The position numbers were made by a program, and so were the translations under genes. From a virus, in IMG/VR virus record IMGVR_UViG_3300045988_182793, positions 1 through 64,000 of that record: a DNA stretch of 64,000 bases; one strand, written 5' to 3'. This document shows, one piece after another, positions 14,990-59,055 of this stretch. Numbering within the stretch: the stretch's first letter is position 1; each line of letters opens with the position of its first letter. Below the pieces are notes generated by a model. The model was given only the letters and a program-made list of their open reading frames with translations, ran no database searches and had not been told where the DNA came from.

Positions 14990-16387
14990 ATGAGCACTTG
15001 CGTTTGCGTTCTCAGCAACAGTGGTGAACGCTTAATGCCTACCTTCCGTCTTGGCAAGGTGCGCCATCTTCTGAAAGACGGAAAGGCTAAAATCGTTAAG
15101 CATCACCCGTTTACCATCCAGCTGCTGTATGACAGCAAAACGAACACGCAGCCTATTGAAATCTGCGAGGATGTGGGCTACAACTACATCGGCATCAGTG
15201 TGAAAAGTCAATCTCACGAGTATGTATCTGCTCAATATGATACATTACAGGACGAGAAAGCCTGCCACGACAGTTGTCGTAAGTTGCGCCGTACACGCAG
15301 AAACAGACTGCGTTACCGTAAACCGCGCTTCGATAACCGCAAGCGCGGCGAAGGTTGGCTTGCTCCTTCTTTGAGGCATAAGAAAGAACTCAATGTCAAC
15401 GTTGTCAAGATGTATTGTGCAGTAATGCCCATTACTCATGCAACAGTTGAGGTTGGTTCTTTCGACACAATGCTTGTAAAAGCAATTCAGGAAGGAAAAG
15501 CCATTCCTGAGGGAGCAGACTATCAAAAAGGTCCTCGCTACAATTTGGCAACCTTGCGTGAGGCAGTGTTCTACCGTGATAATTACACCTGCCAAGTTTG
15601 TGGACGCAAAGTCGCGGATGGTGCCATTTTACATATGCACCACATGTTCTACTGGAAAGGTCGTCACGGCGACAGCCTGAACGAACTTCTAACGGTATGC
15701 GAAAAGTGCCATACACCAGCTAACCATCAAAAAGGCGGTAAGCTTTATGGCTTCGGAGAAAATGTAAAGTTTGCCGACCTTTCCGGTGCGGCTTTTATGA
15801 ACACCGTTAGGTGGCAAATTGTCAATGAACTCTATGCTGCTTTTGGAAAAGATTTTGTCACCGTCACTTATGGCGCAATGACAAAAGAAAAGCGTATCGC
15901 ACTTCGACTTGAAAAAAGCCATAATAACGACGCGTATGCAATGGGCGAGTTTCATCCAAACTGCCGCTGTACGTTTGAACATTATGAAAAGGTAAGGCGT
16001 AATAATCGCATCCTTGAAAAGTTTTATGATTCTCGCTACATTGACATTCGTACAGGAGAAATAGCTACTGGAAAAGAACTCTTCAACGGTAGAATTAACC
16101 GTAACCACAAAAAGGATTCGGAAAATTTGCACAGATACCGTGGCAAGAGGACATACGCAGGGCATCGCGCTCTATTACGCAAAAAGGTAAACCTTAATCC
16201 GGGTGATTTAGTCTCTCTCAACGGAGAAGTTCTCGTTGTGCATAGCACTCATACCAATAAAAAGGGTGCTGTAAATGTAGAATTCAAAACACCCGGAAAA
16301 AGCGGTCAAAAATCTGCAAGCCTTAAAAAACTTAAAATTGTAAAAGCAGCAGATTCCATGCATTCTGCATGGGAAAAAATATCTTAA
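14990..16387 (+). CDS. iscB: IscB RNA-guided nuclease (PLMP, RuvC-I/II/III, RRXRR bridge helix, HNH)
   Basis: N-term VLSNSGERLMPT...GKAKIVKHHPFTIQLLY; ICEDVG (RuvC-I); RRNRLRYRKPRFDNRKRGEGW; CQVCGRK...HMHH...CEKCH (HNH); SHNNDAY (RuvC-III). Confidence 0.85.
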   Translation: MSTCVCVLSNSGERLMPTFRLGKVRHLLKDGKAKIVKHHPFTIQLLYDSKTNTQPIEICEDVGYNYIGISVKSQSHEYVSAQYDTLQDEKACHDSCRKLRRTRRNRLRYRKPRFDNRKRGEGWLAPSLRHKKELNVNVVKMYCAVMPITHATVEVGSFDTMLVKAIQEGKAIPEGADYQKGPRYNLATLREAVFYRDNYTCQVCGRKVADGAILHMHHMFYWKGRHGDSLNELLTVCEKCHTPANHQKGGKLYGFGENVKFADLSGAAFMNTVRWQIVNELYAAFGKDFVTVTYGAMTKEKRIALRLEKSHNNDAYAMGEFHPNCRCTFEHYEKVRRNNRILEKFYDSRYIDIRTGEIATGKELFNGRINRNHKKDSENLHRYRGKRTYAGHRALLRKKVNLNPGDLVSLNGEVLVVHSTHTNKKGAVNVEFKTPGKSGQKSASLKKLKIVKAADSMHSAWEKIS

Positions 16388-24141: not shown

Positions 24142-26028
24142 TCACTGCACAATCTCGCCAAGGTCGTTTGCATATTTCGGGTCACACATCATGAAGTAGT
24201 TGACGGGGCCGTACTCCAGACCGAGCTCCTGCGCGTATGCCTTGATAGCTTCCAGAACGTCCTCTTTCTTGAGGCCAAACTTGGAATGCAGACGGGCAAA
24301 CTCTTTGTCAGAGACAGAAACGCAAGAGCAATTTTCTGCATCGGTTTCTTTGCTGCCCAGCATCCCGTCAAAGATGTCCTGCCCTGCACAGAGAATCGTC
24401 TCATTGTTCATCGCATAGGCGATAACGGAAGCCTTACAGTCAAAGTCGCTGTCTTCCACAAGGAAATCCTCAGGGCGGCCGTGACGTTCAACAACGTTTT
24501 CATAGATGTCCCGGAGTTCGATAGGAGCAGAAGGAGCGGTCAGCGCTGCTTTATGAAGGCGCATAAATTCCACAAGCTTTTCATCCGAGAGGGTATCGGT
24601 ATAAAAGCCGATGCCGGAAACGCGAACCTTCACTTCGCTGGCAAAGTAATCGTCAATTTTGGAGACGATTTTCTGCTGGACCCGCTTGTATGCTTCCTGA
24701 ACATTGGAAGCCGTGTAAAATACCGGGAACTTCATGATGTCGATTCCCTCCGGCAGACTCGCGTCATAGGCCGCATCAATGCCGCCTCGCAGCGTCGGAA
24801 CCGCGTCATGCAGCTCTTTCACAGAAGAAATGTATCCGGTAATGTACAGCTCATCGTTTTTGCTGTAATGCCCGATAAGTCCCACATAGAGGGTCTGCAT
24901 CAGCATCCGCTTGAAGCTGAACCAACAAAGACGAATAGGTAGAATGACATTAGCAGCCGTACCTTCCGCACGATAGGTGCCGGGGGCAGAGACCTTTTCC
25001 AGCAGAATCTGGTCGTTCTTGTCACCGTATTTTTCCTTGAAAAGAGCTTGAAGAATTTCAGTGGACGAAAGAGGAGTGGACATTGGAATCGTTTCATTCA
25101 GAAAAGAGAGGAATGCATCCACGTTGTCTTTCTGCCATGCGTCATCAGACATGCTTGCACGCTGCATAGAGAGCTTGTCTTTCCCGTCGTCAGGCAAGGG
25201 CTCATACCCACAGGCGATACGAAGCTCGTTCTCCGTGACAGCATCCGTTGCGCTTGCAATTTTCTTGATGGTATTCTCGGTCGGCTGAGCTTTCGCGTTG
25301 CCGTTCGCAAGGTTACTGATATATCCACGAGTCAGCCCCGCTTGAAACGCAAACTTACCCTGTGTGCGGGTTCCGATGGCTTTTTTGACCAGCGATGCCA
25401 GCCTTTGAAAGTCGGGCTCTTTGGGAAAGGTGGCCTCCGTATCCTTATTGCTGTTCTTTTCAAGTACCGACTTGTCCCAACCGGTGACAAGAGAATACCC
25501 AATATCCTTCAAGGATTGATAGGCAACCCCATTCTGGTCAAGAGCCGGGGAGTAAATACCGCTGTTATCTTCCAGCTGCTCTACTGCCTCACGCACCATC
25601 CTTGCTTCGTTCATCAGGATGACGTCCGGGGCTTCAAGCCGGGCAAGACTCTTGTACCGATTATTGAGGCGCTCGACTCGTGCGGCCAATGCAGTGATGT
25701 TGGCAACTTGGTCTTCCGTTGCATGGGCAGAGATATCTGCACCAAGTTCAAAATGGTTCAGTGCAGGAATATCCACGCCTTTGCTCTTGGCGAATTCCAC
25801 AATGGCTTCCGCGCCATAGAAACGCTTCTCATGGGCTGCGACAACTTTCGTTATCGTGTCGGCCGAGTTGTCCAGCTCAAGCACTTCACCTTTTCCGGCA
25901 TCCTCGACATAACACCTGGCGTTGGTGAGAAAGCCTTTCAAAAAATCAGCATCCACATCCAGATTCTTAGCGATGCCGGGCAGCTGCTTATAGAAAATCA
26001 CGGGCGTGGCGAGGTTAACAGAAATCAT
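24142..26028 (-). CDS. large reverse-strand protein (628 aa) with internal XRE-like HTH (GKFAFQAGLTRGYISNLANG)
   Basis: only long minus-strand gene inside the + block; own AT-rich promoter region 26030-26240. Confidence 0.6.
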   Translation of the reverse strand: MISVNLATPVIFYKQLPGIAKNLDVDADFLKGFLTNARCYVEDAGKGEVLELDNSADTITKVVAAHEKRFYGAEAIVEFAKSKGVDIPALNHFELGADISAHATEDQVANITALAARVERLNNRYKSLARLEAPDVILMNEARMVREAVEQLEDNSGIYSPALDQNGVAYQSLKDIGYSLVTGWDKSVLEKNSNKDTEATFPKEPDFQRLASLVKKAIGTRTQGKFAFQAGLTRGYISNLANGNAKAQPTENTIKKIASATDAVTENELRIACGYEPLPDDGKDKLSMQRASMSDDAWQKDNVDAFLSFLNETIPMSTPLSSTEILQALFKEKYGDKNDQILLEKVSAPGTYRAEGTAANVILPIRLCWFSFKRMLMQTLYVGLIGHYSKNDELYITGYISSVKELHDAVPTLRGGIDAAYDASLPEGIDIMKFPVFYTASNVQEAYKRVQQKIVSKIDDYFASEVKVRVSGIGFYTDTLSDEKLVEFMRLHKAALTAPSAPIELRDIYENVVERHGRPEDFLVEDSDFDCKASVIAYAMNNETILCAGQDIFDGMLGSKETDAENCSCVSVSDKEFARLHSKFGLKKEDVLEAIKAYAQELGLEYGPVNYFMMCDPKYANDLGEIVQ

Positions 26029-27965: not shown

Positions 27966-28955
27966 GTGAAAAAGCCTATGACAAACGCAGAACTAAAAGC
28001 AATCGTCCAGCGCGAGGAATACGATTTCCTGCACACCAACAAACACTTGGGGAGCAACATTTTATTCCTAACGCTTAGCGGCAGTCATGCCTACGGAACC
28101 AACGTCGAAGGCTCCGATATCGATATACGTGGCGTGGCAGGCTCACCCGAAATCTTAGGGTTTAACCGCTTCGAGCAGGCCATTGACAACCGGACAGATA
28201 CAGTCATCTACGCTGTGAACAAGTTCGTCGGCTTGCTTGCGCAGGGTAATCCCAGCATTATCGAACTTCTTGGCAATGACCCGGAGCTATATGTGAACAT
28301 GACGCCGGAAGGCCAAATGCTGCTTGACAATAGGGAACTGTTCTTGACTCGGCGCATTGCCTACAGCTATGGCGGCTTTGCGAACGACCAGCTCAGACGT
28401 TTGCAGATGGGACTCCTTCGTAATGGGGCCTCGCCGGAAGCATTCAAGAACAAATTCGAAAAGAGAAGCCTGGAACGGTCGATTACCGGATGGGGCAAGG
28501 ATGACATTTTTGAAATTTCCATCAGTGAGGATACAGATGAAGAAGGCAAACATCCGCTCCTGATTTCTGGCAGCTTGAACGATTATCCAGTCACCTCTCT
28601 AAAGTCGCTGCTAAAGAGTCTGACTACGACCATCGACCAGTATGAGCAGCCGCAGCATCCAAAAGCACAAAAAGATGCTGCCCACATCAACAAACACGCG
28701 ATGCACATTGTGCGGTTGTACTACACGGCGTTCGATATTCTGGAAAAAGGCGAGATTATCACTCGCCGAGACAAGGAACGCGAGGAACTGTTGGCGATTC
28801 GCAACGGCAAGTACCTGCGTGAAGACGGGTCGTACGCACCCGAATTCTTTGAGCTTGTTGATGCACTCGAAAAGAGATTTCAGTATGATGTGAAGAAGAC
28901 GATTGAAGAACTGTTGGTAGAAATCAATAAGTCGTATCTGCGACGCGTTTTTTGA
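27966..28955 (+). CDS. Pol-beta-superfamily nucleotidyltransferase (RlaP/DUF2204-like)
   Basis: GSHAYGTNVEGSDIDIRGV (GS...DxD) near N-terminus; LLAQGNPSIIELL. Confidence 0.55.
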   Translation: MKKPMTNAELKAIVQREEYDFLHTNKHLGSNILFLTLSGSHAYGTNVEGSDIDIRGVAGSPEILGFNRFEQAIDNRTDTVIYAVNKFVGLLAQGNPSIIELLGNDPELYVNMTPEGQMLLDNRELFLTRRIAYSYGGFANDQLRRLQMGLLRNGASPEAFKNKFEKRSLERSITGWGKDDIFEISISEDTDEEGKHPLLISGSLNDYPVTSLKSLLKSLTTTIDQYEQPQHPKAQKDAAHINKHAMHIVRLYYTAFDILEKGEIITRRDKEREELLAIRNGKYLREDGSYAPEFFELVDALEKRFQYDVKKTIEELLVEINKSYLRRVF

Positions 28956-29005
28956 CGCACTCCCACCCCTTACGGAGTGGGCTTTCCCGGCGCGGGGACT
29001 GTAAA

Positions 29006-33931: not shown

Positions 33932-34755
33932 AAGGGAAAAATGGAATGGATATAAAATGGGAAATTGCCTTTTATTTAATTGAAGCAAAAAAGGCTGTCG
34001 ATTCTTTATGGTATATATCAAACCATGTCAGCGAATTATATGATGTCAGGCAATTATGCAACGATAGACGAAGTCAGTATTACATTAACACCTGTGCCGT
34101 CTTAGATAAAACTGTGTGTGATGGTAAAGGAAAGAAAAAGGAATTAACGCAAAACGACAATGTTATTGCGCACATCTATTACGAAAGAGATAAGCACTAC
34201 GCTCACAAAGATAGTGATTATAAACAAAACTATCCGTGGACAAATTTGGAACAAGAAGCGTTTGCATTACAAGAGGAATTGCGCCACATTTTAGAAAAAT
34301 GTAAGGATTATCTTCCACAAGTGCTTACACTCGACTTTGTATGTTATGACAGCGTCCAATATCGATATATCAATAAAATTGGCAAAAGTGATGAAGAAAA
34401 AATCAAAGAAGAAAAACATCCTTTTTATAACAATCCGTTCCAATTGAATGCAAAGCCGATAAGAAAGAAACCTATATATGATATTGAGGCTATTAAAAGT
34501 ATCCCTGATAATAAACATAATGAGTATTGTGTTGTCATAGAAAGCGGTTTGACGTTTGAAGAAGATTTACAAAATAGGCAAGATGCTTTAATCAAGTTGA
34601 ATATGCTGTGCGGCAAAAATCTTTGGTGCAGAAAGAATGAATCGATGTGGAATGAATGTCTTAGATTACGGGAATTAGGGATATTTGACGCCTTTGGAAG
34701 ACTAAATTGCAGAAGAATTATAGAAGAAATAGAGAAAGGAAACAACATCTTATGA
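33928..34755 (+). CDS. hypothetical protein, AT-rich, translationally coupled between MTase and DUF262-HNH
   Basis: ATGA overlaps at both ends (33928/33931 and 34752/34755); low GC. Confidence 0.5.
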   Translation: MKGKNGMDIKWEIAFYLIEAKKAVDSLWYISNHVSELYDVRQLCNDRRSQYYINTCAVLDKTVCDGKGKKKELTQNDNVIAHIYYERDKHYAHKDSDYKQNYPWTNLEQEAFALQEELRHILEKCKDYLPQVLTLDFVCYDSVQYRYINKIGKSDEEKIKEEKHPFYNNPFQLNAKPIRKKPIYDIEAIKSIPDNKHNEYCVVIESGLTFEEDLQNRQDALIKLNMLCGKNLWCRKNESMWNECLRLRELGIFDAFGRLNCRRIIEEIEKGNNIL

Positions 34756-35888
34756 AAATTACAGAAACCAAAATCAAGGTATCCGACCTCGTAGAGAACT
34801 ATTCGAACGATGGAGACGGCGGCGTATACGGTTACAACAATCGGCTCACGATTAGGCCGAGCTACCAAAGAAATTTCTGCTTCTCCGATAAACAGCGTGC
34901 AGCCGTCATTGATTCAGTGATGAACGGATTTCCATTGAACCTTATGTACTGGTCTAAGACCGGTCCGGATTCCTACGAGGTTCTCGATGGTCAGCAGCGG
35001 ACAATTTCCATTGCGCAGTATGTCAACAAAGACTACCCCGTCAAAATCAACGGCAATGACAAGTTCTTCCAGAACCTGACAGACGAGGAAAAGCGGACGA
35101 TACTGGACTACGAGTTGACCGTGAATATCTGTGAGGGCTCCGAAGCCGAGAAACTGGCATGGTTCAAGCGCATCAACATCGCTGGAGAAGTTCTGACTCC
35201 GCAAGAGCTGCTGAACGCTACCTATACAGGTCCGTGGCTGGCTGATGCAAAGAACTACTTATCAAAGCGCAACTGTGTGGCCGCGAAGATGGCTGATGGT
35301 TACTTGAAAGGGAACCCTATTCGGCAGGAGTTGCTGGAAAAGGCACTGGCGTGGATTGCTGACCGTGATGGTCTGGAATCCGGGCAGATGTACATGGCGG
35401 TTCACCAGCATGACGAGGACGCCAATGACCTCTGGCTTTACTTCCAGTCGGTAATCAACTGGGCAAAAATGCTGTTCCCGACTAAGCGGAAGGGAATTAC
35501 GGATGCACAGGCATGGGGACTGCTCTACAACCAATATCATTCAAAGCAGTACAATAGCAACGCTTTGGAAACGGACATTAAGAAACTCGTACTGGATGAT
35601 GATGTAACTAAGAAGGCAGGCATCATCCCGTTCATCCTCTCTGACCGTATTTGGCGTGATGAAAAGCACCTGTCCCTTCGTGCGTTTACTGAATCTCAGA
35701 AGCTTCGCGCCTATGAGCGGCAGGGTCACAAGTGCCCCTTGTGCGTTGCAAATGGCATCAACACCGAGTATGCCTTTGAGGATATGGAAGGTGACCACAT
35801 CATTCCTTGGAGCAAGGGCGGGCATACCACAGACAATAACCTGCAGATGCTGTGCAAGAAGTGCAATGCGGCAAAGTCGGATAAATAA
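34752..35888 (+). CDS. DUF262 (ParB-like DGQQR) + C-terminal HNH nuclease (GmrSD-like)
   Basis: LDGQQRTISIAQ; C-term GDHIIPWSKGGHTTDNNLQMLCKKCNAAK. Confidence 0.8.
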   Translation: MKITETKIKVSDLVENYSNDGDGGVYGYNNRLTIRPSYQRNFCFSDKQRAAVIDSVMNGFPLNLMYWSKTGPDSYEVLDGQQRTISIAQYVNKDYPVKINGNDKFFQNLTDEEKRTILDYELTVNICEGSEAEKLAWFKRINIAGEVLTPQELLNATYTGPWLADAKNYLSKRNCVAAKMADGYLKGNPIRQELLEKALAWIADRDGLESGQMYMAVHQHDEDANDLWLYFQSVINWAKMLFPTKRKGITDAQAWGLLYNQYHSKQYNSNALETDIKKLVLDDDVTKKAGIIPFILSDRIWRDEKHLSLRAFTESQKLRAYERQGHKCPLCVANGINTEYAFEDMEGDHIIPWSKGGHTTDNNLQMLCKKCNAAKSDK

Positions 35889-47045: not shown

Positions 47046-47224
47046 ACCATATCACAAAATCCGCGCCAAGGAAACCCACTGCGTGAGCGGTGGGAGGAAT
47101 TGGCGCATGAGTTTTCAAGAATGATGAATGTGTACAATCTGTAAATAAGAAAGCTACTTGATTTCTTTTTGCATCAAAAAATATTATAATACCGATATAA
47201 TCAATCAAAGAAAGGAGGGCTATT

Positions 47225-48957
47225 ATGGCTTTCGGAAACAAGAATAGCACGCCATCGTTTGTGTTGACACTCCCCATGAAAGTGACCAAGCAGGACGAAT
47301 TTTTTCTTTCTAAAAGGTTTCGTGTTGGATGCACGGTTTATAACCAAATAGTTACAAAAACTACAAAAATGTGGCACCAGCTGCGCAAAACGCGTGAATA
47401 TAAAAACCTTATAAAAGCCATAAAAGCCGCTCCTGTCAACAGTGATGAACGAAAAGCACTGTTGGTGCAGCGTTCCAATCTGATTAAGCAAGCGGGCTTT
47501 TCTGAGGGTGCGTTCCACAAGTTGGTCGTGCCATACCAAAAAGCATACAACGTAAATTGTGATGTCGCTCAAAAAGTTGCGTCCGCCGTCTGGAAAGCGT
47601 GGGATGACTTCTTTTATGGAAAAGGAAAGACCGTACACTATAAAAAGTTGGACGATTTTGTGACCCTTTCCGGAAAGAAAAACAACAGCGGTATATTCTT
47701 TCGCCCGGCAAACCATACGGTGAGTTCGATGGAATCCGCTAAGCGAAAAACTCTATCGAGAAAAAATACTTCGATGCGTACAGAAAACCCGACGCTAAAA
47801 AAGACGAAGAAGTAGTTCTTCCCGATGAAGTAAAAGCGCAAATGGACAAAGAGGTTGCCGATGCCACGGCGAAAATCAAACCGTATATCGGAGAAGGTAA
47901 TCTGCGTATCATTTACGAGAAACACGAATTCCTTGTCAAAGTGCGCAACCCCGATACTCAAACTGGATGGTATCAACAGGAAGCGCTCAAATGCGGTGTG
48001 AAGTATTGCCGGATTGTTCGCTCATGGGTCGGCACCAAATGGAAGTATTACGCTCAACTTGTTTTGGAAGGCTATCCGCCCATCAAATGCGACGGTAACG
48101 GGGTCATAAAACACCCTGTTAAGCAGGGCCGCATTGGTATAGATATCGGCACACAGACTATCACGTTTTGCGGTAAAGATGTTTGCGACCTTCGTGTACT
48201 TGCACCGTCTGCCATAGCGGAAGCTCGCAATGGTCTTACCAAGGAAATCGCTCGCATTATGCGGCAAATGGACCGTTCGCGCCGTGCGATGAATCCGCAA
48301 TACTTTAACAAAAACGGAACCATCAAACGGCTAAAACGCAAGAACGGATATAAGCAAATTCGTCATTGGAACTATAGCAAAAACTATTATCGGCTGCTGT
48401 ACAGGCTGCGGAATTTGAACCGCAAGCTTGCTGCCGTACGCAAGGCGGAGCATTATATTCTCGCCAACGAATTGCTGACATACGGCAACGAATTCGTAGT
48501 TGAAGATATGAACTACAAAGCCTTGCAGAAGCGCAGCAAGAAAACGAAAACCAACCCCAAAACCGGTAGAGCGCATTCCAAAAAGCGGTTTGGCAAATCT
48601 ATAGGACGCTGCGCTCCAGCTTTGTTTATCACCATTTTGGGGCAAAAAGCAAGTCGTTGCGGAGGCAGCGTTATCAAGGTCAGTACCTTTGAAACAAAAG
48701 CTTCGCAGTTTGACCATACCGACGATAGTTTTACCAAGAAAAAATTGTCCCAGCGTTTTGCTAAACTTTCTGACGGAACCGTTGTCCAAAGAGATTTGTA
48801 TTCCGCATTCCTTTTATTACATCTTGGGAAGAACCTTCAATCCTATAACAAGAAAACCATTAAAAAAGATTTCCCGCAGTTTAAGAAGCTGCACGACAAA
48901 ACAAAAGAACGCTTGCAAAACAGCCACGAGTGGCTGCCTTGTAGCGTTGGCTTCTAA
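47225..48957 (+). pseudogene. tnpB: tnpB-like RuvC nuclease gene split by frameshift (47225-47815 frame 2; 47743-48957 frame 1); zinc-finger cysteines absent
   Basis: N-term FVLTLPMKVTKQDEFFLSKRFRVGCTVYNQIV (TnpB N-terminal pattern); GIDIGTQ (RuvC-I), VVEDMNYK (RuvC-II), QRDLYSAF (RuvC-III-like); SQFDHTDD where canonical TnpB has SQLCHDCG. Confidence 0.6.
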
Positions 48958-49240
48958 AGCACCTATAATTTAAGGGGTTTCGACGTAGCCCCATTGATTG
49001 CCTTGACATGTTGCTTTCAGCAGCACTTGATAGGTGAAACCCTAATTTAGGGGATATCTACACTTTTTATGCCGGCTTTTCGGGCATTTTGCCCTGCCTT
49101 TAAGCTTCGCTTTGGGTAGTAAGTACACTGGTCTATCGAAAGATAGTGTATCTGGCAGCTTTACGCTGTTGGAAAACCCTGTAACTGCATTGCGTCAGCA
49201 TAGAATCCCACTCCGTGAGGGGTGGGAGTACGTCAATTAT
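48958..49240 (+). ncRNA. candidate TnpB omega/reRNA (structured 3' region overlapping right end)
   Basis: ~280 nt non-coding with strong hairpins GGGGTTTCGACGTAGCCCC, ATGCCGGCTTTTCGGGCAT, CCCACTCC..GGGGTGGG. Confidence 0.4.
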
Positions 49241-49295
49241 ACATTGCCACTGTTTTCCTACAGAAACGGTGGTTTTTTAGAAAAGGAGACCACAA

Positions 49296-54026: not shown

Positions 54027-54941
54027 ATGACAGACGACGTACGTAATTTAATTCGATTTGTGGTGGATGGCGATATTCGAAACGCGCAGACTCAGTGCCG
54101 AATCATGCTTGAAAAGAATGTACCCGAAAAGGACGCCAGGTTCAAAGAAAACGAACTCAGAAAGTTGAATCTTCTGAAACCGGAACTGATTCAGCTGCCC
54201 GCCAACCTGGAAAGCCTCTTGATTGCGGAGGATGCCACGAATTTCCCTGAGAGCCGGTTCCTGCTCCGCGAGGAGGAAGAAACAGTCATCAACAAGCTCT
54301 TAGCCACCAGAAAAGCAGCTTTAGCCATCAAGGAGCTTGGCATCCACTATACTTGCTCTTTGCTTTTGACGGGCCTTCCTGGTGTTGGTAAGACTGAATT
54401 GGCCCGCTACATTGCACACAAGGCGAATTTACCGTTTGTTTTCCTGAAATTCTCTGGCCTTGTCAATTCTGCTCTTGGCCGGACACAGCAGAACATCGGC
54501 AGAGTGTTCGATTACGCAAAGCGCACGCCTTGTGTTCTTTGTGTTGATGAAATTGATGCCATCGGAATGTGCCGTGGCAGCCGCGATGATGTCGCTGAAA
54601 TGAGCCGCGTCACCATCGCATTGATGCAGGAACTTGACCGGCTCCCGAATGACGTCATTCTCATTGGCACTACAAACCGCGTCGATAACCTTGACGAAGC
54701 CCTCATTCGCCGATTCACTTTCAAACACCGCGTCAAGCCTTTAGGCGACGATGACATGAAAGAACTGTGCAAGAAGTTCCTTGCTTCGGCAGACTATCCC
54801 TTCACGGAATCCGAACTCGACGAACTCTGCCATTCGCTGCGTGAACAGCGGACTGCCAGCGCCGTTGTCAATGCCTGTACAGAACGTATCGTTGCACATA
54901 TCGTATCGCAGCTGCCTGAAAATTCGGCAGATGCCGTGTAA
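54027..54941 (+). CDS. AAA+ ATPase
   Basis: Walker A LTGLPGVGKT, Walker B VLCVDEIDAIG, sensor IGTTNR. Confidence 0.75.
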   Translation: MTDDVRNLIRFVVDGDIRNAQTQCRIMLEKNVPEKDARFKENELRKLNLLKPELIQLPANLESLLIAEDATNFPESRFLLREEEETVINKLLATRKAALAIKELGIHYTCSLLLTGLPGVGKTELARYIAHKANLPFVFLKFSGLVNSALGRTQQNIGRVFDYAKRTPCVLCVDEIDAIGMCRGSRDDVAEMSRVTIALMQELDRLPNDVILIGTTNRVDNLDEALIRRFTFKHRVKPLGDDDMKELCKKFLASADYPFTESELDELCHSLREQRTASAVVNACTERIVAHIVSQLPENSADAV

Positions 54942-56951: not shown

Positions 56952-57196
56952 CAATTGTTCTCAGGAAGAGGAACGGCTCCTGAGACATCAAGGTTTTCCT
57001 TTCCCCAATCTTGGTCGCATGGCTTCATTTGAGCTGACACAGGTGAAGCGTGAAAATCATCCGTTTCATAGTAATATCCTTCCTTTCTTTGGCGCGGGTA
57101 ACTCCGCGCCAGCCGTCCAAGCAAACAGCCTCCACGCGGCGGACGGTGGACAACAGATGTTTCCGTGTTCCGGGCATCTGGCTAATGTTTGTATTT

Positions 57197-57272
57197 GCTG
57201 GTTTAGCTCAGCTGGTAGAGCAACTGATTTGTAATCAGTCGGTCATCGGTTCAAGTCCGATTTCCAGCTCCA
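57197..57272 (+). tRNA. tRNA-Thr (anticodon TGT); acceptor has two U-U mispairs
   Basis: cloverleaf traced by hand; D and T arms canonical. Confidence 0.6.
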
Positions 57273-57745
57273 GACGCTATCCGTTGGATGTATCGAAATC
57301 ACATGATACGATGCTATACACAACATCTGGCGGACAGCATGCCACCCATTAAGGCGGCCTCCTCGTGGCGGGTGGCGGACAGCGGCTCTTGCGGCTGCTG
57401 ACGAATGTCTTAGAAGCATGCAAACGTACGAGCATCCCCGTCAAGTCGGGGCGCATCCAGACGCGACACAGCCGTAAAGGCGAGATTGCTGCACGGCAAC
57501 TGGTAAGTTTCGCCGCAGTCTCACACACAGCCCAACAACAACCGTTAACCCGATTTGACAGGGAATCAACGACAGGGCTCAAAATTTGAAGTTGACCAAC
57601 ACCCAAGCGCTTTCTTGGATTCTCGCGTATCGTCAACGATGAGGTTCGCAAGATTGTCAGGTGGTGTGAAGATGACATCCGGGGATGACGACCTACTAAA
57701 CGGATGTCATGGCGGGGCTAAGTGAGGGTTCACCCGCAATCTTAT

Positions 57746-57820
57746 GCAGGTATCGTATAACGGCTAATACTCCGCCCCTCCAAGGCGGAGACGCGGGTTC
57801 GACCCCCGCTACTTGCTCCA
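57746..57820 (+). tRNA. tRNA-Gly (TCC)
   Basis: cloverleaf traced; encoded CCA. Confidence 0.7.
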
Positions 57821-58092
57821 CACGTCGCAGTCACCGTACGCCACGACGTTAAACTTGGTGAGCATGGTCCACTTGTGGTCCGCTGTCCGAATGTCGATGA
57901 GACAGCCTCAAAAATAATAGACAAACAGGTGCTGTGCCTGAAAGTATTCGAAAGTCCCGGTGTTAGTCGCGAATAAGACCGGAAAACGGTGAAGAGGGTA
58001 CAATACAGAATCTATCGGCGTGGCTGCCGAATGGTGCTGGATGCGAGTTGGCTTCTCGCTCAAGGGGTGACCAGCATAAAACACCCTATCGT

Positions 58093-58168
58093 GCTCGATT
58101 AGCTCAGTTGGTAGAGCAGCGCATTCGTAACGCGCAGGTCGGCAGTTCGAACCTGCCATCAAGCCCCA
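58093..58168 (+). tRNA. tRNA-Thr (CGT)
   Basis: cloverleaf traced; one A-C mismatch in anticodon stem. Confidence 0.65.
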
Positions 58169-58206
58169 TTACCCAATGAAGCGATAATAGAAAGGAGATG
58201 AAACTT

Positions 58207-58590
58207 ATGGAACAGGCAATTATCAATGTCGAAGGTACAACTACCATTGAAACCGCTGCAGCAGCCAAAAAGCTGATTGGGATGCTTGGCAACCAGAACG
58301 TCCGCGCCATCGCTGTCAACCGTGTAAACGACAAGAGCGACGAGGTCATTGTTGAACTCGATTTCGTTCCCGGTTTGGCACCGCATCTGCACGGCTTCAC
58401 GCTTCAGGTTAATGGCTTGACCTGTGGTTATGCTGGTACTGGTCCTTCCAATCTGTATGAAGTCCTGCAGGCGGCTGGCGTGAGTGAAGCTCAGGTAGCA
58501 CGCGAGGACATCACTCAGAAGAGCACAAAAACCATTCCTCTGCGCCTGGAACGCGCCGTGACTCAGTACGGCGACTTCCAGTTTGCGTAA
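58207..58590 (+). CDS. hypothetical protein (127 aa)
   Basis: RBS AAAGGAGA. Confidence 0.5.
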   Translation: MEQAIINVEGTTTIETAAAAKKLIGMLGNQNVRAIAVNRVNDKSDEVIVELDFVPGLAPHLHGFTLQVNGLTCGYAGTGPSNLYEVLQAAGVSEAQVAREDITQKSTKTIPLRLERAVTQYGDFQFA

Positions 58591-58620
58591 CGCTATTTGG
58601 CGGGCTTGACCCGCCATCAT

Positions 58621-58696
58621 GGAGGGATAGCTTAGCTGGATAAAGCACCTGCCGCAAAGCAGGGTATCGATGGTTCGAGGCCATCTCCCTTCTCCA
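58621..58696 (+). tRNA. tRNA-like with perfect 5-bp anticodon stem but 6-nt loop CGCAAA (Cys-GCA-like?)
   Basis: acceptor, D, T arms and CCA fit; anticodon loop non-canonical. Confidence 0.45.
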
Positions 58697-59055
58697 TCCA
58701 GACACCCTTTCGCTTCCTTTCGCCAAAGGTATCTGGGGTATTGTACTGCATTGCGTGTAGTACGGCCAATCAGGCGCGGAACTCCGAAACCATACCACGA
58801 AGAATTTTATCCTCTCCGCGCAGCATGGACATGCGATTTTACGGGGATAAATTCAAACCGAAATTGTGTCGAGTGGCGAAGACGGTTGCGACACTGGCGA
58901 AGCACATATCTGCTTCGTCAACCATCCATGAGAAAGCCTCCACGTGGCAGATGGTGGGCAACGCAGCAAAGCTGCGGCTGATTTCTTTCAAACCGGTATC
59001 TGAATAAATGCAGATAAATAGACGAAAAAATCAAAAAAGCAAAGGAGTACACAGC

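What the first reader, a model, noticed from the sequence alone, without database searches (positions are those of the whole stretch)
47065..49240. Second OMEGA element: long TnpB-like gene with a frameshift and all zinc-finger cysteines replaced, plus structured 3' RNA
Subterminal hairpins CCCACTGCGTGAGCGGTGGG (47075) and CCCACTCCGTGAGGGGTGGG (49207) bracket the element. The N-terminal ORF (frame 2) and RuvC-containing ORF (frame 1) overlap around an A-run at 47743-47815. The region aligned to canonical SQLCHDCG...CPNCG reads SQFDHTDD...LSDGT, so it is a ZF-less variant about 600 aa long, which is long for TnpB. The 280-nt region after the stop has three strong hairpins, as expected for a reRNA/omega-RNA.
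Basis: partly seen in the sequence, partly recalled or inferred. Interest (0 to 1): 0.6.

Follow-up and report, generated by a model that had tools for sequence, protein, structure and literature searches.

The report
Decayed IS608-like tnpB element in phage
This is a 2.2-kb IS200/IS605-type insertion sequence in a gut phage genome; it carries only a long, naturally zinc-finger-less TnpB gene that a 7-base deletion has broken, so it is a real but fairly ordinary decaying selfish element.

Summary
Window 47056-49236 (+) is a discrete mobile element. The exact predicted empty junction CCATATCAC|TTATACATTGCC occurs in 46 related phage contigs, so there is no target duplication. Its ends follow IS608 rules: target TCAC, a 19-nt spacer, a guide tetranucleotide and a hairpin on the left; GAAT, a hairpin and a 10-nt tail ending in TCAA on the right.

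The gene is a divergent TnpB. An AlphaFold model of a 90%-identical intact homolog matches ISFba1 TnpB, Cas12f and Fanzor structures. The RuvC D/E/D residues are conserved. No C4 zinc finger exists anywhere in the clade (0 of 215 relatives), so frame correction cannot restore one.

Intact relatives are 578-579 aa. A sister group carries a Y1 TnpA immediately upstream.

The frameshift is real but is not A-run slippage. The window lost one copy of a tandem 7-nt repeat (AAGCGAA). The same allele occurs on 5 contigs from different assemblies. Other copies are broken elsewhere, so this is pseudogenisation rather than programmed frameshifting.

The 279-nt 3' region is a conserved structured RNA with covariation, consistent with an omega-RNA. 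No Rfam family matches it.

Relatives are already annotated as ISCbt1 OrfB in Clostridium phage c-st, and zinc-finger loss in TnpB branches is published. This is a new member of a known kind, of modest interest.

The parts
47052..47055 (+). Target / cleavage site CL and predicted TAM, TCAC. This is flanking DNA, not part of the element.
   Evidence: All 5 distinct group-A insertion sites end in TCAC (4 of 5 in TTCAC). All sister-group sites end in TTAC. The empty site retains ...CCATATCAC|TTATAC....
47056..47094 (+). Left end (LE): 19-nt spacer 47056-47074, whose last four bases are the guide tetranucleotide GL (47071-47074, GAAA), followed by the subterminal hairpin 47075-47094.
   Evidence: The 19-nt distance and GL position match IS608 (PMC3201880, PMC5934647). 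Most sister copies have GAAG, the tetranucleotide predicted for CL TCAC. The window has G->A at position 4.
47158..47187 (+). Promoter-like site upstream of tnpB (TTGATT-18-TATTAT).
   Evidence: It matches 9 of 12 consensus positions and the region has no more such sites than shuffles give, so this is weak evidence.
47225..47749 (+). tnpB 5' part (frame 2), homologous to intact relatives up to ...ESAKRK. Frame 2 then runs out of register to a stop at 47813-47815.
47741..47750 (+). Frameshift lesion. A single AAGCGAA unit stands where intact copies (L007, L048) have AAGCGAA-AAGCGAA, a 7-nt deletion.
   Evidence: The allele recurs on 5 contigs.
47743..48957 (+). tnpB 3' part (frame 1, from AKNSIEKK...). 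It holds RuvC-I D (48142-48144), RuvC-II E (48502-48504) and RuvC-III D (48793-48795). The zinc-finger-equivalent segment without cysteines is 48703-48780.
   Evidence: Fold evidence.
48958..49236 (+). Conserved, structured 3' non-coding region, the candidate omega-RNA (reRNA) scaffold. It may start a few nt inside the CDS.
   Evidence: No Rfam match.
49203..49236 (+). Right end (RE): GR GAAT (49203-49206), hairpin 49207-49226, and the 10-nt tail AGTACGTCAA ending in cleavage site CR TCAA (49233-49236).
   Evidence: Similarity between copies in different contexts stops exactly after TCAA.
49237..49256 (+). Predicted guide portion of the omega-RNA (flank TTATACATTGCCACTGTTTT). It equals the sequence next to TCAC in the empty allele.
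   Evidence: Inference from TnpB biology (PMC13565253), together with the empty sites.
49246..49273 (+). Terminator-like hairpin plus T-run belonging to the host locus. The element inserted between the radical-SAM gene's stop codon and this terminator.

Best explanation
Window 47056-49236 is a non-autonomous, tnpB-only IS200/IS605 insertion sequence of the IS608 type, sitting in a large gut-phage genome.

How such elements work. They move as single-stranded DNA through a Y1 (HUH) TnpA transposase supplied in trans. TnpA binds the two subterminal hairpins. The cleavage sites are read by base pairing with the tetranucleotides 5' of each hairpin: TCAC 19 nt upstream of the left hairpin, and TCAA ending 10 nt downstream of the right hairpin.

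Role of the cargo. The gene is an RNA-guided RuvC nuclease, TnpB. Loaded with an omega-RNA transcribed from the structured last ~280 nt plus ~16-20 nt of right flank, TnpB would cut the empty allele (TCAC followed by TTATACATTGCC...) and force its repair from an occupied copy. This is restorative homing, or phage-to-phage homing.

The protein. This TnpB belongs to a large clade, mostly seen in Clostridia-type phages, that has replaced the C4 zinc finger with a Cys-free SQ[YF][DN]H...QRDLYSAF segment while keeping the D-E-D triad. The window's subfamily also has a ~70-aa helical insertion.

State of this copy. It is decaying. A slippage deletion of one 7-nt tandem repeat inside that insertion splits the gene into 196-aa and 371-aa ORFs. 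The left-end guide tetranucleotide also carries a G->A change predicted to unpair the cleavage-site C. The copy is most likely inert and inherited vertically with the phage.

What is shown: boundaries, empty site, end architecture, fold, residue conservation, the deletion, and RNA covariation.

What is inferred: transposition, omega-RNA expression, TAM, nuclease activity and homing.
For: Boundaries and empty site:
- Copies in 5 different contexts share sequence only between TCAC| and |after TCAA.
- The exact empty junction is found in 46 IMG/VR contigs and aligns seamlessly to both flanks.

IS608 rules:
- The left spacer is 19 nt, the right tail is 10 nt ending in TCAA, GR is GAAT, and AG follows the right hairpin (compared with PMC3201880 and PMC5934647).
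- The sister group and ISCbt1 have TTAC/AAAG. Group A has TCAC/GAAG, the compensatory change predicted by the C-3:G1 pairing.

Transposase: a Y1 TnpA (Pfam Y1_Tnp, 2e-33) abuts tnpB in the 62-69%-identical sister group.

TnpB identity:
- NCBIfam guided_TnpB E = 1e-17 and PHROG 506 transposase E = 6e-36.
- AF2 model pLDDT 84.5; Foldseek top hits are ISFba1 TnpB (E = 3e-11, TMt 0.70), Cas12f, Cas12m, Fanzor2 and ISDra2 TnpB.
- A profile search aligns EDMN and QRDLYSAF to EDLN and RDLNAA of Cas12n 9j09.
- D309, E429 and D526 are kept in 207-209 of 215 relatives. The TNB-equivalent segment has 0 Cys in 183 of 215 and never four.

Deletion and decay:
- define the 7-nt deletion.
- The allele is on 5 contigs.
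- Other copies are independently broken.
- No TnpA is encoded in the window.

RNA: 49 consensus pairs, 18 with double-sided changes. 98.8% of cells are paired, against 44-51% when partners are slid. The window fold has z = -3.8.
Against: - No expression, cleavage or transposition data exist for any member of this clade.
- Curated HMM cut-offs are not reached: guided_TnpB scores 64.5 against a cut-off of 100, and Pfam OrfB_IS605 is not significant for this subfamily.
- Most of the RNA covariation comes from the split between two clades, so there are few independent events. The terminal hairpin is also a DNA signal for TnpA.
- The effect of the GL G->A change is inferred from IS608 rules only.
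- The promoter-like site is no better than chance.
Confidence: 0.85

Rival explanations
1. The split gene is still expressed as one protein by programmed -1 ribosomal frameshifting at A AAA AAT (47760-47766) or A AAA AAG (47796-47802) in the 73-nt overlap. The product would be a near-normal TnpB differing only within the lineage-specific insertion.
For: Both heptamers are in the correct register for a frame 2 -> frame 1 shift. A shift at the first would replace only about 8 residues in a low-confidence helical insertion.
Against: The two-ORF arrangement is not conserved. Forty-three of the 52 full-length family loci fetched are single intact ORFs, and the closest ones (L007, L048) have the extra 7 nt at this spot. 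The same A-runs are ordinary Lys codons in intact copies. No stimulatory structure was looked for or seen. Other copies are broken at unrelated places.
Confidence: 0.04
2. The frameshift is an assembly or sequencing error, and the gene is intact in the real phage.
For: The lesion lies in a low-complexity tandem repeat where both polymerases and assemblers can slip.
Against: The exact 196-aa ORF created by the deletion is recorded on 5 contigs from different sources (an ENA metagenome assembly and a Logan assembly of ERR260159, among others). The 371-aa C-terminal ORF cluster has 33 members. A 7-nt loss is not a typical homopolymer error.
Confidence: 0.05
3. The element has been domesticated. 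Either the omega-RNA and/or the 371-aa RuvC-containing fragment serves the phage, for example as a regulator or an anti-competitor nuclease, or the two fragments reassemble as a split enzyme.
For: The 3' RNA region and the C-terminal ORF are undamaged. The element sits between a gene and its terminator, so it is probably transcribed. TnpB-derived repressors (TldR) are described in PMC13565253.
Against: The C-terminal ORF lacks the N-terminal WED strand and the REC helices needed to hold guide RNA. The D-E-D triad is intact rather than dead as in TldR-type repressors. The same-site copies L007-L010 are intact, so the split is recent. There is no sign of conservation of the split form beyond a narrow lineage.
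Confidence: 0.05

Closest known systems
IS608 (Helicobacter pylori), the IS200/IS605 family prototype
   Same: - No inverted repeats and one subterminal hairpin at each end.
- Insertion 3' of a tetranucleotide without target duplication.
- CL lies 19 nt 5' of the left hairpin and CR TCAA ends 10 nt 3' of the right hairpin.
- GR is GAAT and an AG dinucleotide follows the right hairpin.
- The sister group even uses TTAC/AAAG, as IS608 does (PMC5934647, PMC3201880).
   Different: - The window's subgroup targets TCAC, with GL GAAG (GAAA in the window).
- It carries no tnpA.
- Its TnpB is 579 aa and lacks a zinc finger, whereas IS608 TnpB belongs to the 'typical' 300-450-aa clade whose conserved C4 zinc finger is a general feature of the major clades (PMC10691335).
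ISCbt1 (OrfA + OrfB) of Clostridium phage c-st, and the OrfB-like 'transposases' of phages phiCD211 and Geobacillus virus E3
   Same: - Same TnpB clade, 36-42% identical over 83-87% of the length.
- The wider clade has the same Cys-free SQ[YF][DN]H...QRDLYSAF segment.
- ISCbt1 has a Y1 OrfA upstream and a TTAC + 19 nt + AAAG-hairpin left end.
- All are phage-borne.
   Different: - These relatives are about 480-495 aa and lack the ~70-aa helical insertion.
- The window copy has no OrfA and is frameshifted.
ISDra2 / ISFba1 TnpB-omegaRNA (structurally solved OMEGA nucleases)
   Same: - Overall WED-REC-RuvC-TNB fold: Foldseek E = 3e-11 to 7e-7, TMt 0.65-0.70.
- D-E-D triad.
- 3'-terminal structured RNA next to the right end.
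   Different: - Only 11-13% sequence identity.
- No C4 zinc finger.
- About 200 extra residues.
- The RNA has no detectable similarity to any Rfam family.
TnpB major clade RIIIr-4 of Altae-Tran et al. 2023 (zinc-finger-less, virus-enriched)
   Same: Lacks the C4 zinc finger and is over-represented in viruses (PMC10691335).
   Different: RIIIr-4 has the RuvC-III Asp replaced by His and is linked to RHH/MazE-like genes. This clade keeps QRD (D in 207 of 215) and is linked to Y1 TnpA. It is therefore probably a different zinc-finger-less branch. Its exact placement in that tree was not testable here.

Membership tests
IS200/IS605 insertion sequences (IS608 type) | Subterminal imperfect-palindrome hairpins at both ends and no terminal inverted repeats | tested here: met
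   Hairpins at 47075-47094 and 49207-49226 are conserved across loci. The stem changes compensate between LE and RE and between clades.
IS200/IS605 insertion sequences (IS608 type) | Insertion 3' of a specific tetranucleotide with no target-site duplication; precise empty sites exist | tested here: met
   TCAC precedes all 5 distinct group-A sites. The exact empty junction occurs in 46 viral contigs.
IS200/IS605 insertion sequences (IS608 type) | Cleavage sites complementary to guide tetranucleotides 5' of each hairpin, at IS608 spacing (19 nt left, 10 nt right) | tested here: met
   The spacing is identical. GR GAAT pairs with CR TCAA, and GL GAAG pairs with CL TCAC in most copies (rules from PMC3201880). 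In the window copy GL is GAAA, one predicted mismatch.
IS200/IS605 insertion sequences (IS608 type) | Y1 HUH transposase TnpA | tested here: not met
   No TnpA is encoded in the 64-kb window, so this copy is non-autonomous. The 62-69%-identical sister group has a 133-aa Y1_Tnp (2e-33) abutting tnpB.
TnpB (OMEGA RNA-guided nuclease) | RuvC-like fold with a D-E-D catalytic triad | tested here: met
   AF2 plus Foldseek match TnpB, Cas12f and Fanzor structures. D309, E429 and D526 are conserved in 207-209 of 215 relatives. The motifs align to Cas12n 9j09.
TnpB (OMEGA RNA-guided nuclease) | C4 zinc finger between RuvC-II and RuvC-III (present in most TnpBs, but reported lost in some branches) | tested here: not met
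   None of 215 relatives has four Cys in the segment, and 183 have none. Lineage-specific zinc-finger loss is published (PMC10691335), so this does not exclude membership.
TnpB (OMEGA RNA-guided nuclease) | Passes curated family HMM thresholds | tested here: not met
   NCBIfam guided_TnpB scores 64.5 bits against a cut-off of 100. Pfam OrfB_IS605 gives E = 0.61 for the window ORF, and matches only 6 of 18 clade members at E<=0.01. The clade is divergent.
TnpB (OMEGA RNA-guided nuclease) | Structured omega-RNA/reRNA encoded at the 3' end, running through the right end into a flank-derived guide | tested here: inconclusive
   A conserved structure with covariation is present in the right place. 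Transcription, processing and guide use could not be tested, and there is no Rfam match.
TnpB (OMEGA RNA-guided nuclease) | TAM-dependent RNA-guided DNA cleavage | not testable with these tools
   This needs biochemistry or an interference assay. The TAM TCAC is inferred from the transposon target.
Intact functional gene | Single uninterrupted ORF colinear with homologs | tested here: not met
   A 7-nt deletion at 47741-47750 splits the gene.

The most novel reading that the evidence does not exclude
The intact members of this zinc-finger-less, insertion-bearing TnpB subfamily may be active RNA-guided nucleases that work as a gene drive between co-infecting gut phages. Their flank-derived guide plus TCAC matches the empty allele, which is carried by at least 46 related phage contigs, so an occupied phage would cut and convert its empty relatives. 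The Cys-free SQ[YF][DN]H segment would then be a functional, metal-independent or Asp/His-based replacement of the zinc finger. A more exotic add-on is that the window's split allele is rescued by -1 frameshifting in the A-rich overlap.
Probability: 0.3. Interest if true: 0.55.

Novelty: new member of a known kind. Interest (0 to 1): 0.3.

Why it matters
The result turns a suspicious-looking 'broken, cysteine-less, over-long TnpB' into a well-defined object. It is a decaying copy of an IS608-type element whose TnpB belongs to a large, phage-rich clade that dispensed with the zinc finger but kept the catalytic triad.

For annotation, this clade escapes Pfam and the NCBIfam cut-off, so it is usually left unnamed.

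For biology and tool-building, intact 578-579-aa relatives come with defined ends, a predicted TAM (TCAC or TTAC), a delimited omega-RNA region, and natural occupied and empty alleles. They are ready-made candidates to test two questions: whether a TnpB can work without its zinc finger, and whether OMEGA elements drive through phage populations. The natural TTAC/AAAG to TCAC/GAAG switch also illustrates the IS608 retargeting rule.

The window copy itself is probably inert.

Tried and rejected
1. I first merged the two ORFs by a -1 shift at A AAA AAG. The alignment to homologs showed the real junction is about 50 nt upstream, at a 7-nt deletion, so I rejected slippery-site or homopolymer slippage as the cause.
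2. Single-sequence Pfam and phmmer against the PDB gave nothing useful. Only profile and structure searches linked the protein to TnpB and Cas12.
3. Megablast of the locus against GenBank phages found no match.
4. The genome-contig scan gave only 2 loci, so host assignment rests on a Clostridiales MAG and on Clostridia-phage relatives.
5. Rfam at gathering and at E<=10 found no RNA family in the 3' region.
6. I considered assignment to the zinc-finger-less RIIIr-4 clade of Altae-Tran et al. and rejected it, because that clade has RuvC-III D->H and this one keeps D.
7. Promoter and terminator scans were no better than shuffles, apart from identifying the host terminator just after the right end.
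8. I did not build a covariance model, because the 346-column alignment would probably exceed the calibration limit.
Full report
**Observation**

Between them lie a 196-aa ORF (47225-47815, frame 2) and a 371-aa ORF (47842-48957; frame 1 is open from 47743). The two overlap over 47743-47815. The peptide strings SQFDHTDD and LSDGT are at 48703-48726 and 48766-48780.

**What the gene is**

I joined the two ORFs and searched 5.8 billion proteins. This gave 1368 hits. Nearly all are single ORFs of 578-579 aa covering 100% of the query, at 88-90% identity (P0001-P0003) or about 65% identity (the bulk). None has a precomputed Pfam domain.

NCBIfam guided_TnpB matches at E = 1e-17 but below its cut-off (64.5 against 100 bits). 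PHROG 506 'transposase' matches at 6e-36.

An exhaustive HMMER scan of 1.84 billion cluster representatives found 2170 relatives at E<1e-3 and 550 at E<1e-30. In the combined sample of relatives of at least 440 aa used, the median length is 521 aa.

GenBank phage relatives at 36-42% identity include the OrfB of ISCbt1 in Clostridium phage c-st, phiCD211 and Geobacillus virus E3. All are annotated as IS200/IS605-type transposases.

An AlphaFold2 model of the intact homolog P0001, built on a 45-sequence alignment, has pLDDT 84.5 and pTM 0.68. Foldseek against the PDB returns ISFba1 TnpB first (8iaz_A, E = 3.4e-11, TM 0.70 on the target). Cas12p, Cas12m2, Cas12f, Fanzor2 and ISDra2 TnpB follow.

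A profile search of PDB sequences hits only Cas12n 9j09. It aligns GRVGxDIG, EDMN and QRDLYSAF to that protein's RuvC-I, -II and -III motifs.

**Zinc finger and catalytic residues**

Across 215 relatives of at least 440 aa:
- D309, E429 and D526 (P0001 numbering) are present in 207, 209 and 207 sequences.
- The segment equivalent to the zinc-finger/TNB insert has no cysteine in 183 sequences, one in 28, two in 4, and never four.
- In its place SQ[YF][DN]H, R513 and QRDLYSAF are almost invariant.

Zinc-finger loss is therefore a fixed trait of a large clade, not a lesion of this copy. The nuclease triad is retained. Altae-Tran et al. 2023 (PMC10691335) already report that the C4 zinc finger is lost in some large TnpB branches. 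Their zinc-finger-less RIIIr-4 clade has RuvC-III D->H, which this clade does not, so this is probably a different branch.

The window's subfamily carries a ~70-aa insertion at residues ~163-235, seen in 45 of the 215 sequences. It is predicted as two helices with lower confidence.

**The frameshift**

Protein alignment shows homologs reading ...ESAKRK-AKNSIEKRYFDA.... The window follows frame 2 up to SAKRK and frame 1 from AKNSIEKK.

DNA alignment shows that L007 and L048, which are locally identical to the window, have GCT-AAGCGAA-AAGCGAA-AAAC. The window has a single AAGCGAA unit at 47741-47750. This is a 7-nt slippage deletion inside the lineage-specific insertion.

The allele is real. The exact 196-aa ORF it creates is recorded on 5 contigs, including a 165-kb ENA scaffold and a Logan assembly of ERR260159.

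The same-site copies L007-L010 are intact at 579 aa. Other copies are broken independently:
- L001: a 5-nt deletion at the same repeat plus a second shift.
- L048, L044 and L051/L052: frameshifts elsewhere.
- L053: an internal deletion.

This pattern indicates ordinary pseudogenisation of a selfish gene, not programmed frameshifting.

**Element boundaries and ends**

Copies sitting in five different genomic contexts share sequence only from just after TCAC to just after ...GTGGGAGTACGTCAA. From this I predicted the empty junction CCATATCAC|TTATACATTGCC. It occurs exactly in 46 IMG/VR contigs, and three of these align seamlessly to both window flanks.

The element is therefore 47056-49236 (2181 bp), inserted 3' of TCAC with no duplication. 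It lies between the stop codon of a radical-SAM gene and that gene's terminator-like hairpin at 49246-49273.

The end geometry is that of IS608 (PMC5934647, PMC3201880):
- The left cleavage site lies 19 nt 5' of the hairpin foot (47056-47074).
- The guide tetranucleotide sits immediately 5' of the hairpin.
- On the right are GR GAAT (49203-49206), the hairpin, and a 10-nt tail AGTACGTCAA ending in CR TCAA.

The 62-69%-identical sister group (L025-L055) and ISCbt1 use TTAC with GL AAAG, exactly as IS608 does. Most copies of the window's group use TCAC with GL GAAG. This is the compensatory change predicted by the IS608 pairing of C-3 with the first guide base.

The window and its closest relatives have GAAA instead of GAAG. 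By the same rules this unpairs the C next to the cleavage point. That inference marks a second sign of decay.

**Transposase**

The sister group encodes a 133-aa Y1 TnpA (Pfam Y1_Tnp, 2e-33; HUH and Tyr motifs present) whose stop abuts the tnpB start. The window encodes none, so this copy is non-autonomous.

**3' RNA**

The 279 nt between the stop and the right end are conserved within each group. RNAalifold on 30 sequences gives 49 pairs, 18 of them with double-sided changes. With the structure fixed, 98.8% of cells pair, against 44-51% when partners are slid by 1-3 columns. The covariation score is 0.42, against 0.05-0.11 for the slid controls.

The window RNA folds at -112.5 kcal/mol, with z = -3.8 against shuffles.

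Caveats: most covariation reflects the split between two clades, the structure was derived from the same alignment, and the last hairpin is also the TnpA DNA signal. No Rfam family matches.

The position and architecture fit an omega-RNA whose guide would be the flank TTATACATTGCCACTG.... Expression is untested.

**Mechanism**

From the anatomy above and established TnpA/TnpB biology (PMC3201880, PMC13565253), I infer the following. A TnpA supplied in trans excises and inserts the top strand using the hairpins and the guide/cleavage pairings. TnpB loaded with the omega-RNA cuts TCAC-flanked empty alleles, so that recombination restores or spreads the element.

Many empty alleles exist in related phages. 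One phage contig has an empty site here and a copy elsewhere (L080 and L011, contig 183134). Both observations fit recent mobility and possible phage-to-phage homing.

The window copy, with a split tnpB and a mutated left guide, is most likely inert.

**Verdict**

This is a real feature, correctly spotted, and its oddities are explained. It is a new, decayed member of a known kind: an IS200/IS605 tnpB-only element in the ISCbt1-like zinc-finger-less TnpB clade. Interest is modest. The useful by-products are a fully delimited, untested zinc-finger-less TnpB system and a natural example of the IS608 retargeting rule.

Noticed in passing
window 28952-29004 (minus strand): A 49-nt single-hairpin mini-element preceded by TTAC: TTAC|AGTCCCCGCGCCGGGAAAG-CCCACTCCGTAAGGGGTGGG-AGTGCGTCAA|. 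Its 5' half resembles the left end (19 nt ending in AAAG) and its 3' half the right end (10 nt ending in TCAA). It is either a hairpin-to-hairpin deletion derivative or a minimal PATE/MITE-like unit of the same IS. Its terminal TCAA (reverse complement TTGA) supplies the TGA stop of ORF 27966-28955.
   Followed up: partly
window 14990-16387 (+): The 'first OMEGA element' is an IscB gene (NCBIfam guided_IscB, 266.8 bits, cut-off 175). The phage therefore carries two different OMEGA nuclease types. Its ends and omega-RNA were not examined.
   Followed up: no
window 57112-57192 (+) and 57197-63412: An Rfam HDV-F-prausnitzii ribozyme hit (46.6 bits, gathering score 44) lies immediately upstream of tRNA-Thr(UGU). 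About 18 tRNA genes follow on the + strand, including a dense array at 61573-63412. ARAGORN also calls an odd tRNA with a 2-nt anticodon at 58621-58696.
   Followed up: no
window 49246-49273 (+): A terminator-like hairpin (11-bp stem plus T-run) starts 10 nt after the element's right end, so the predicted omega-RNA guide overlaps its 5' arm. In empty alleles the terminator follows the radical-SAM gene directly.
   Followed up: partly
L012-L015, L019-L024 (IMG/VR loci), about 110 nt upstream of the left end: In these phages the same element sits about 50 nt downstream of what looks like the 3' end of a tRNA gene (GGTTCGAATCCCGCTGCCCGCTCCACC). Some of these copies have the target mutated to TCAG.
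   Followed up: no
L005, L030, L038, L042 (sister-group loci), positions ~900-1500: The tnpA gene upstream of tnpB is interrupted or replaced over its 5' half by an unrelated GC-rich segment that is shared among these loci. Only the C-terminal ...WTRSYFVSTAG... part is kept. The nature of the insert is unknown.
   Followed up: no
IMG/VR contigs 3300029583_000373, 3300045988_182512, 3300029341_000344, 3300029789_000308: Single phage contigs carry two family members, one from the tnpB-only group and one from the tnpA+tnpB group. A TnpA source in trans can therefore coexist with the non-autonomous element.
   Followed up: no
window 24142-26028 (-), 34707-35888 (+), 54027-54941 (+): Context genes include an rpoC-like fragment protein (beta' region), a GmrSD_N+HNH endonuclease and an IteA-like AAA ATPase. 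These fit a large virulent-type phage with its own RNA polymerase pieces and counter-defence genes.
   Followed up: no
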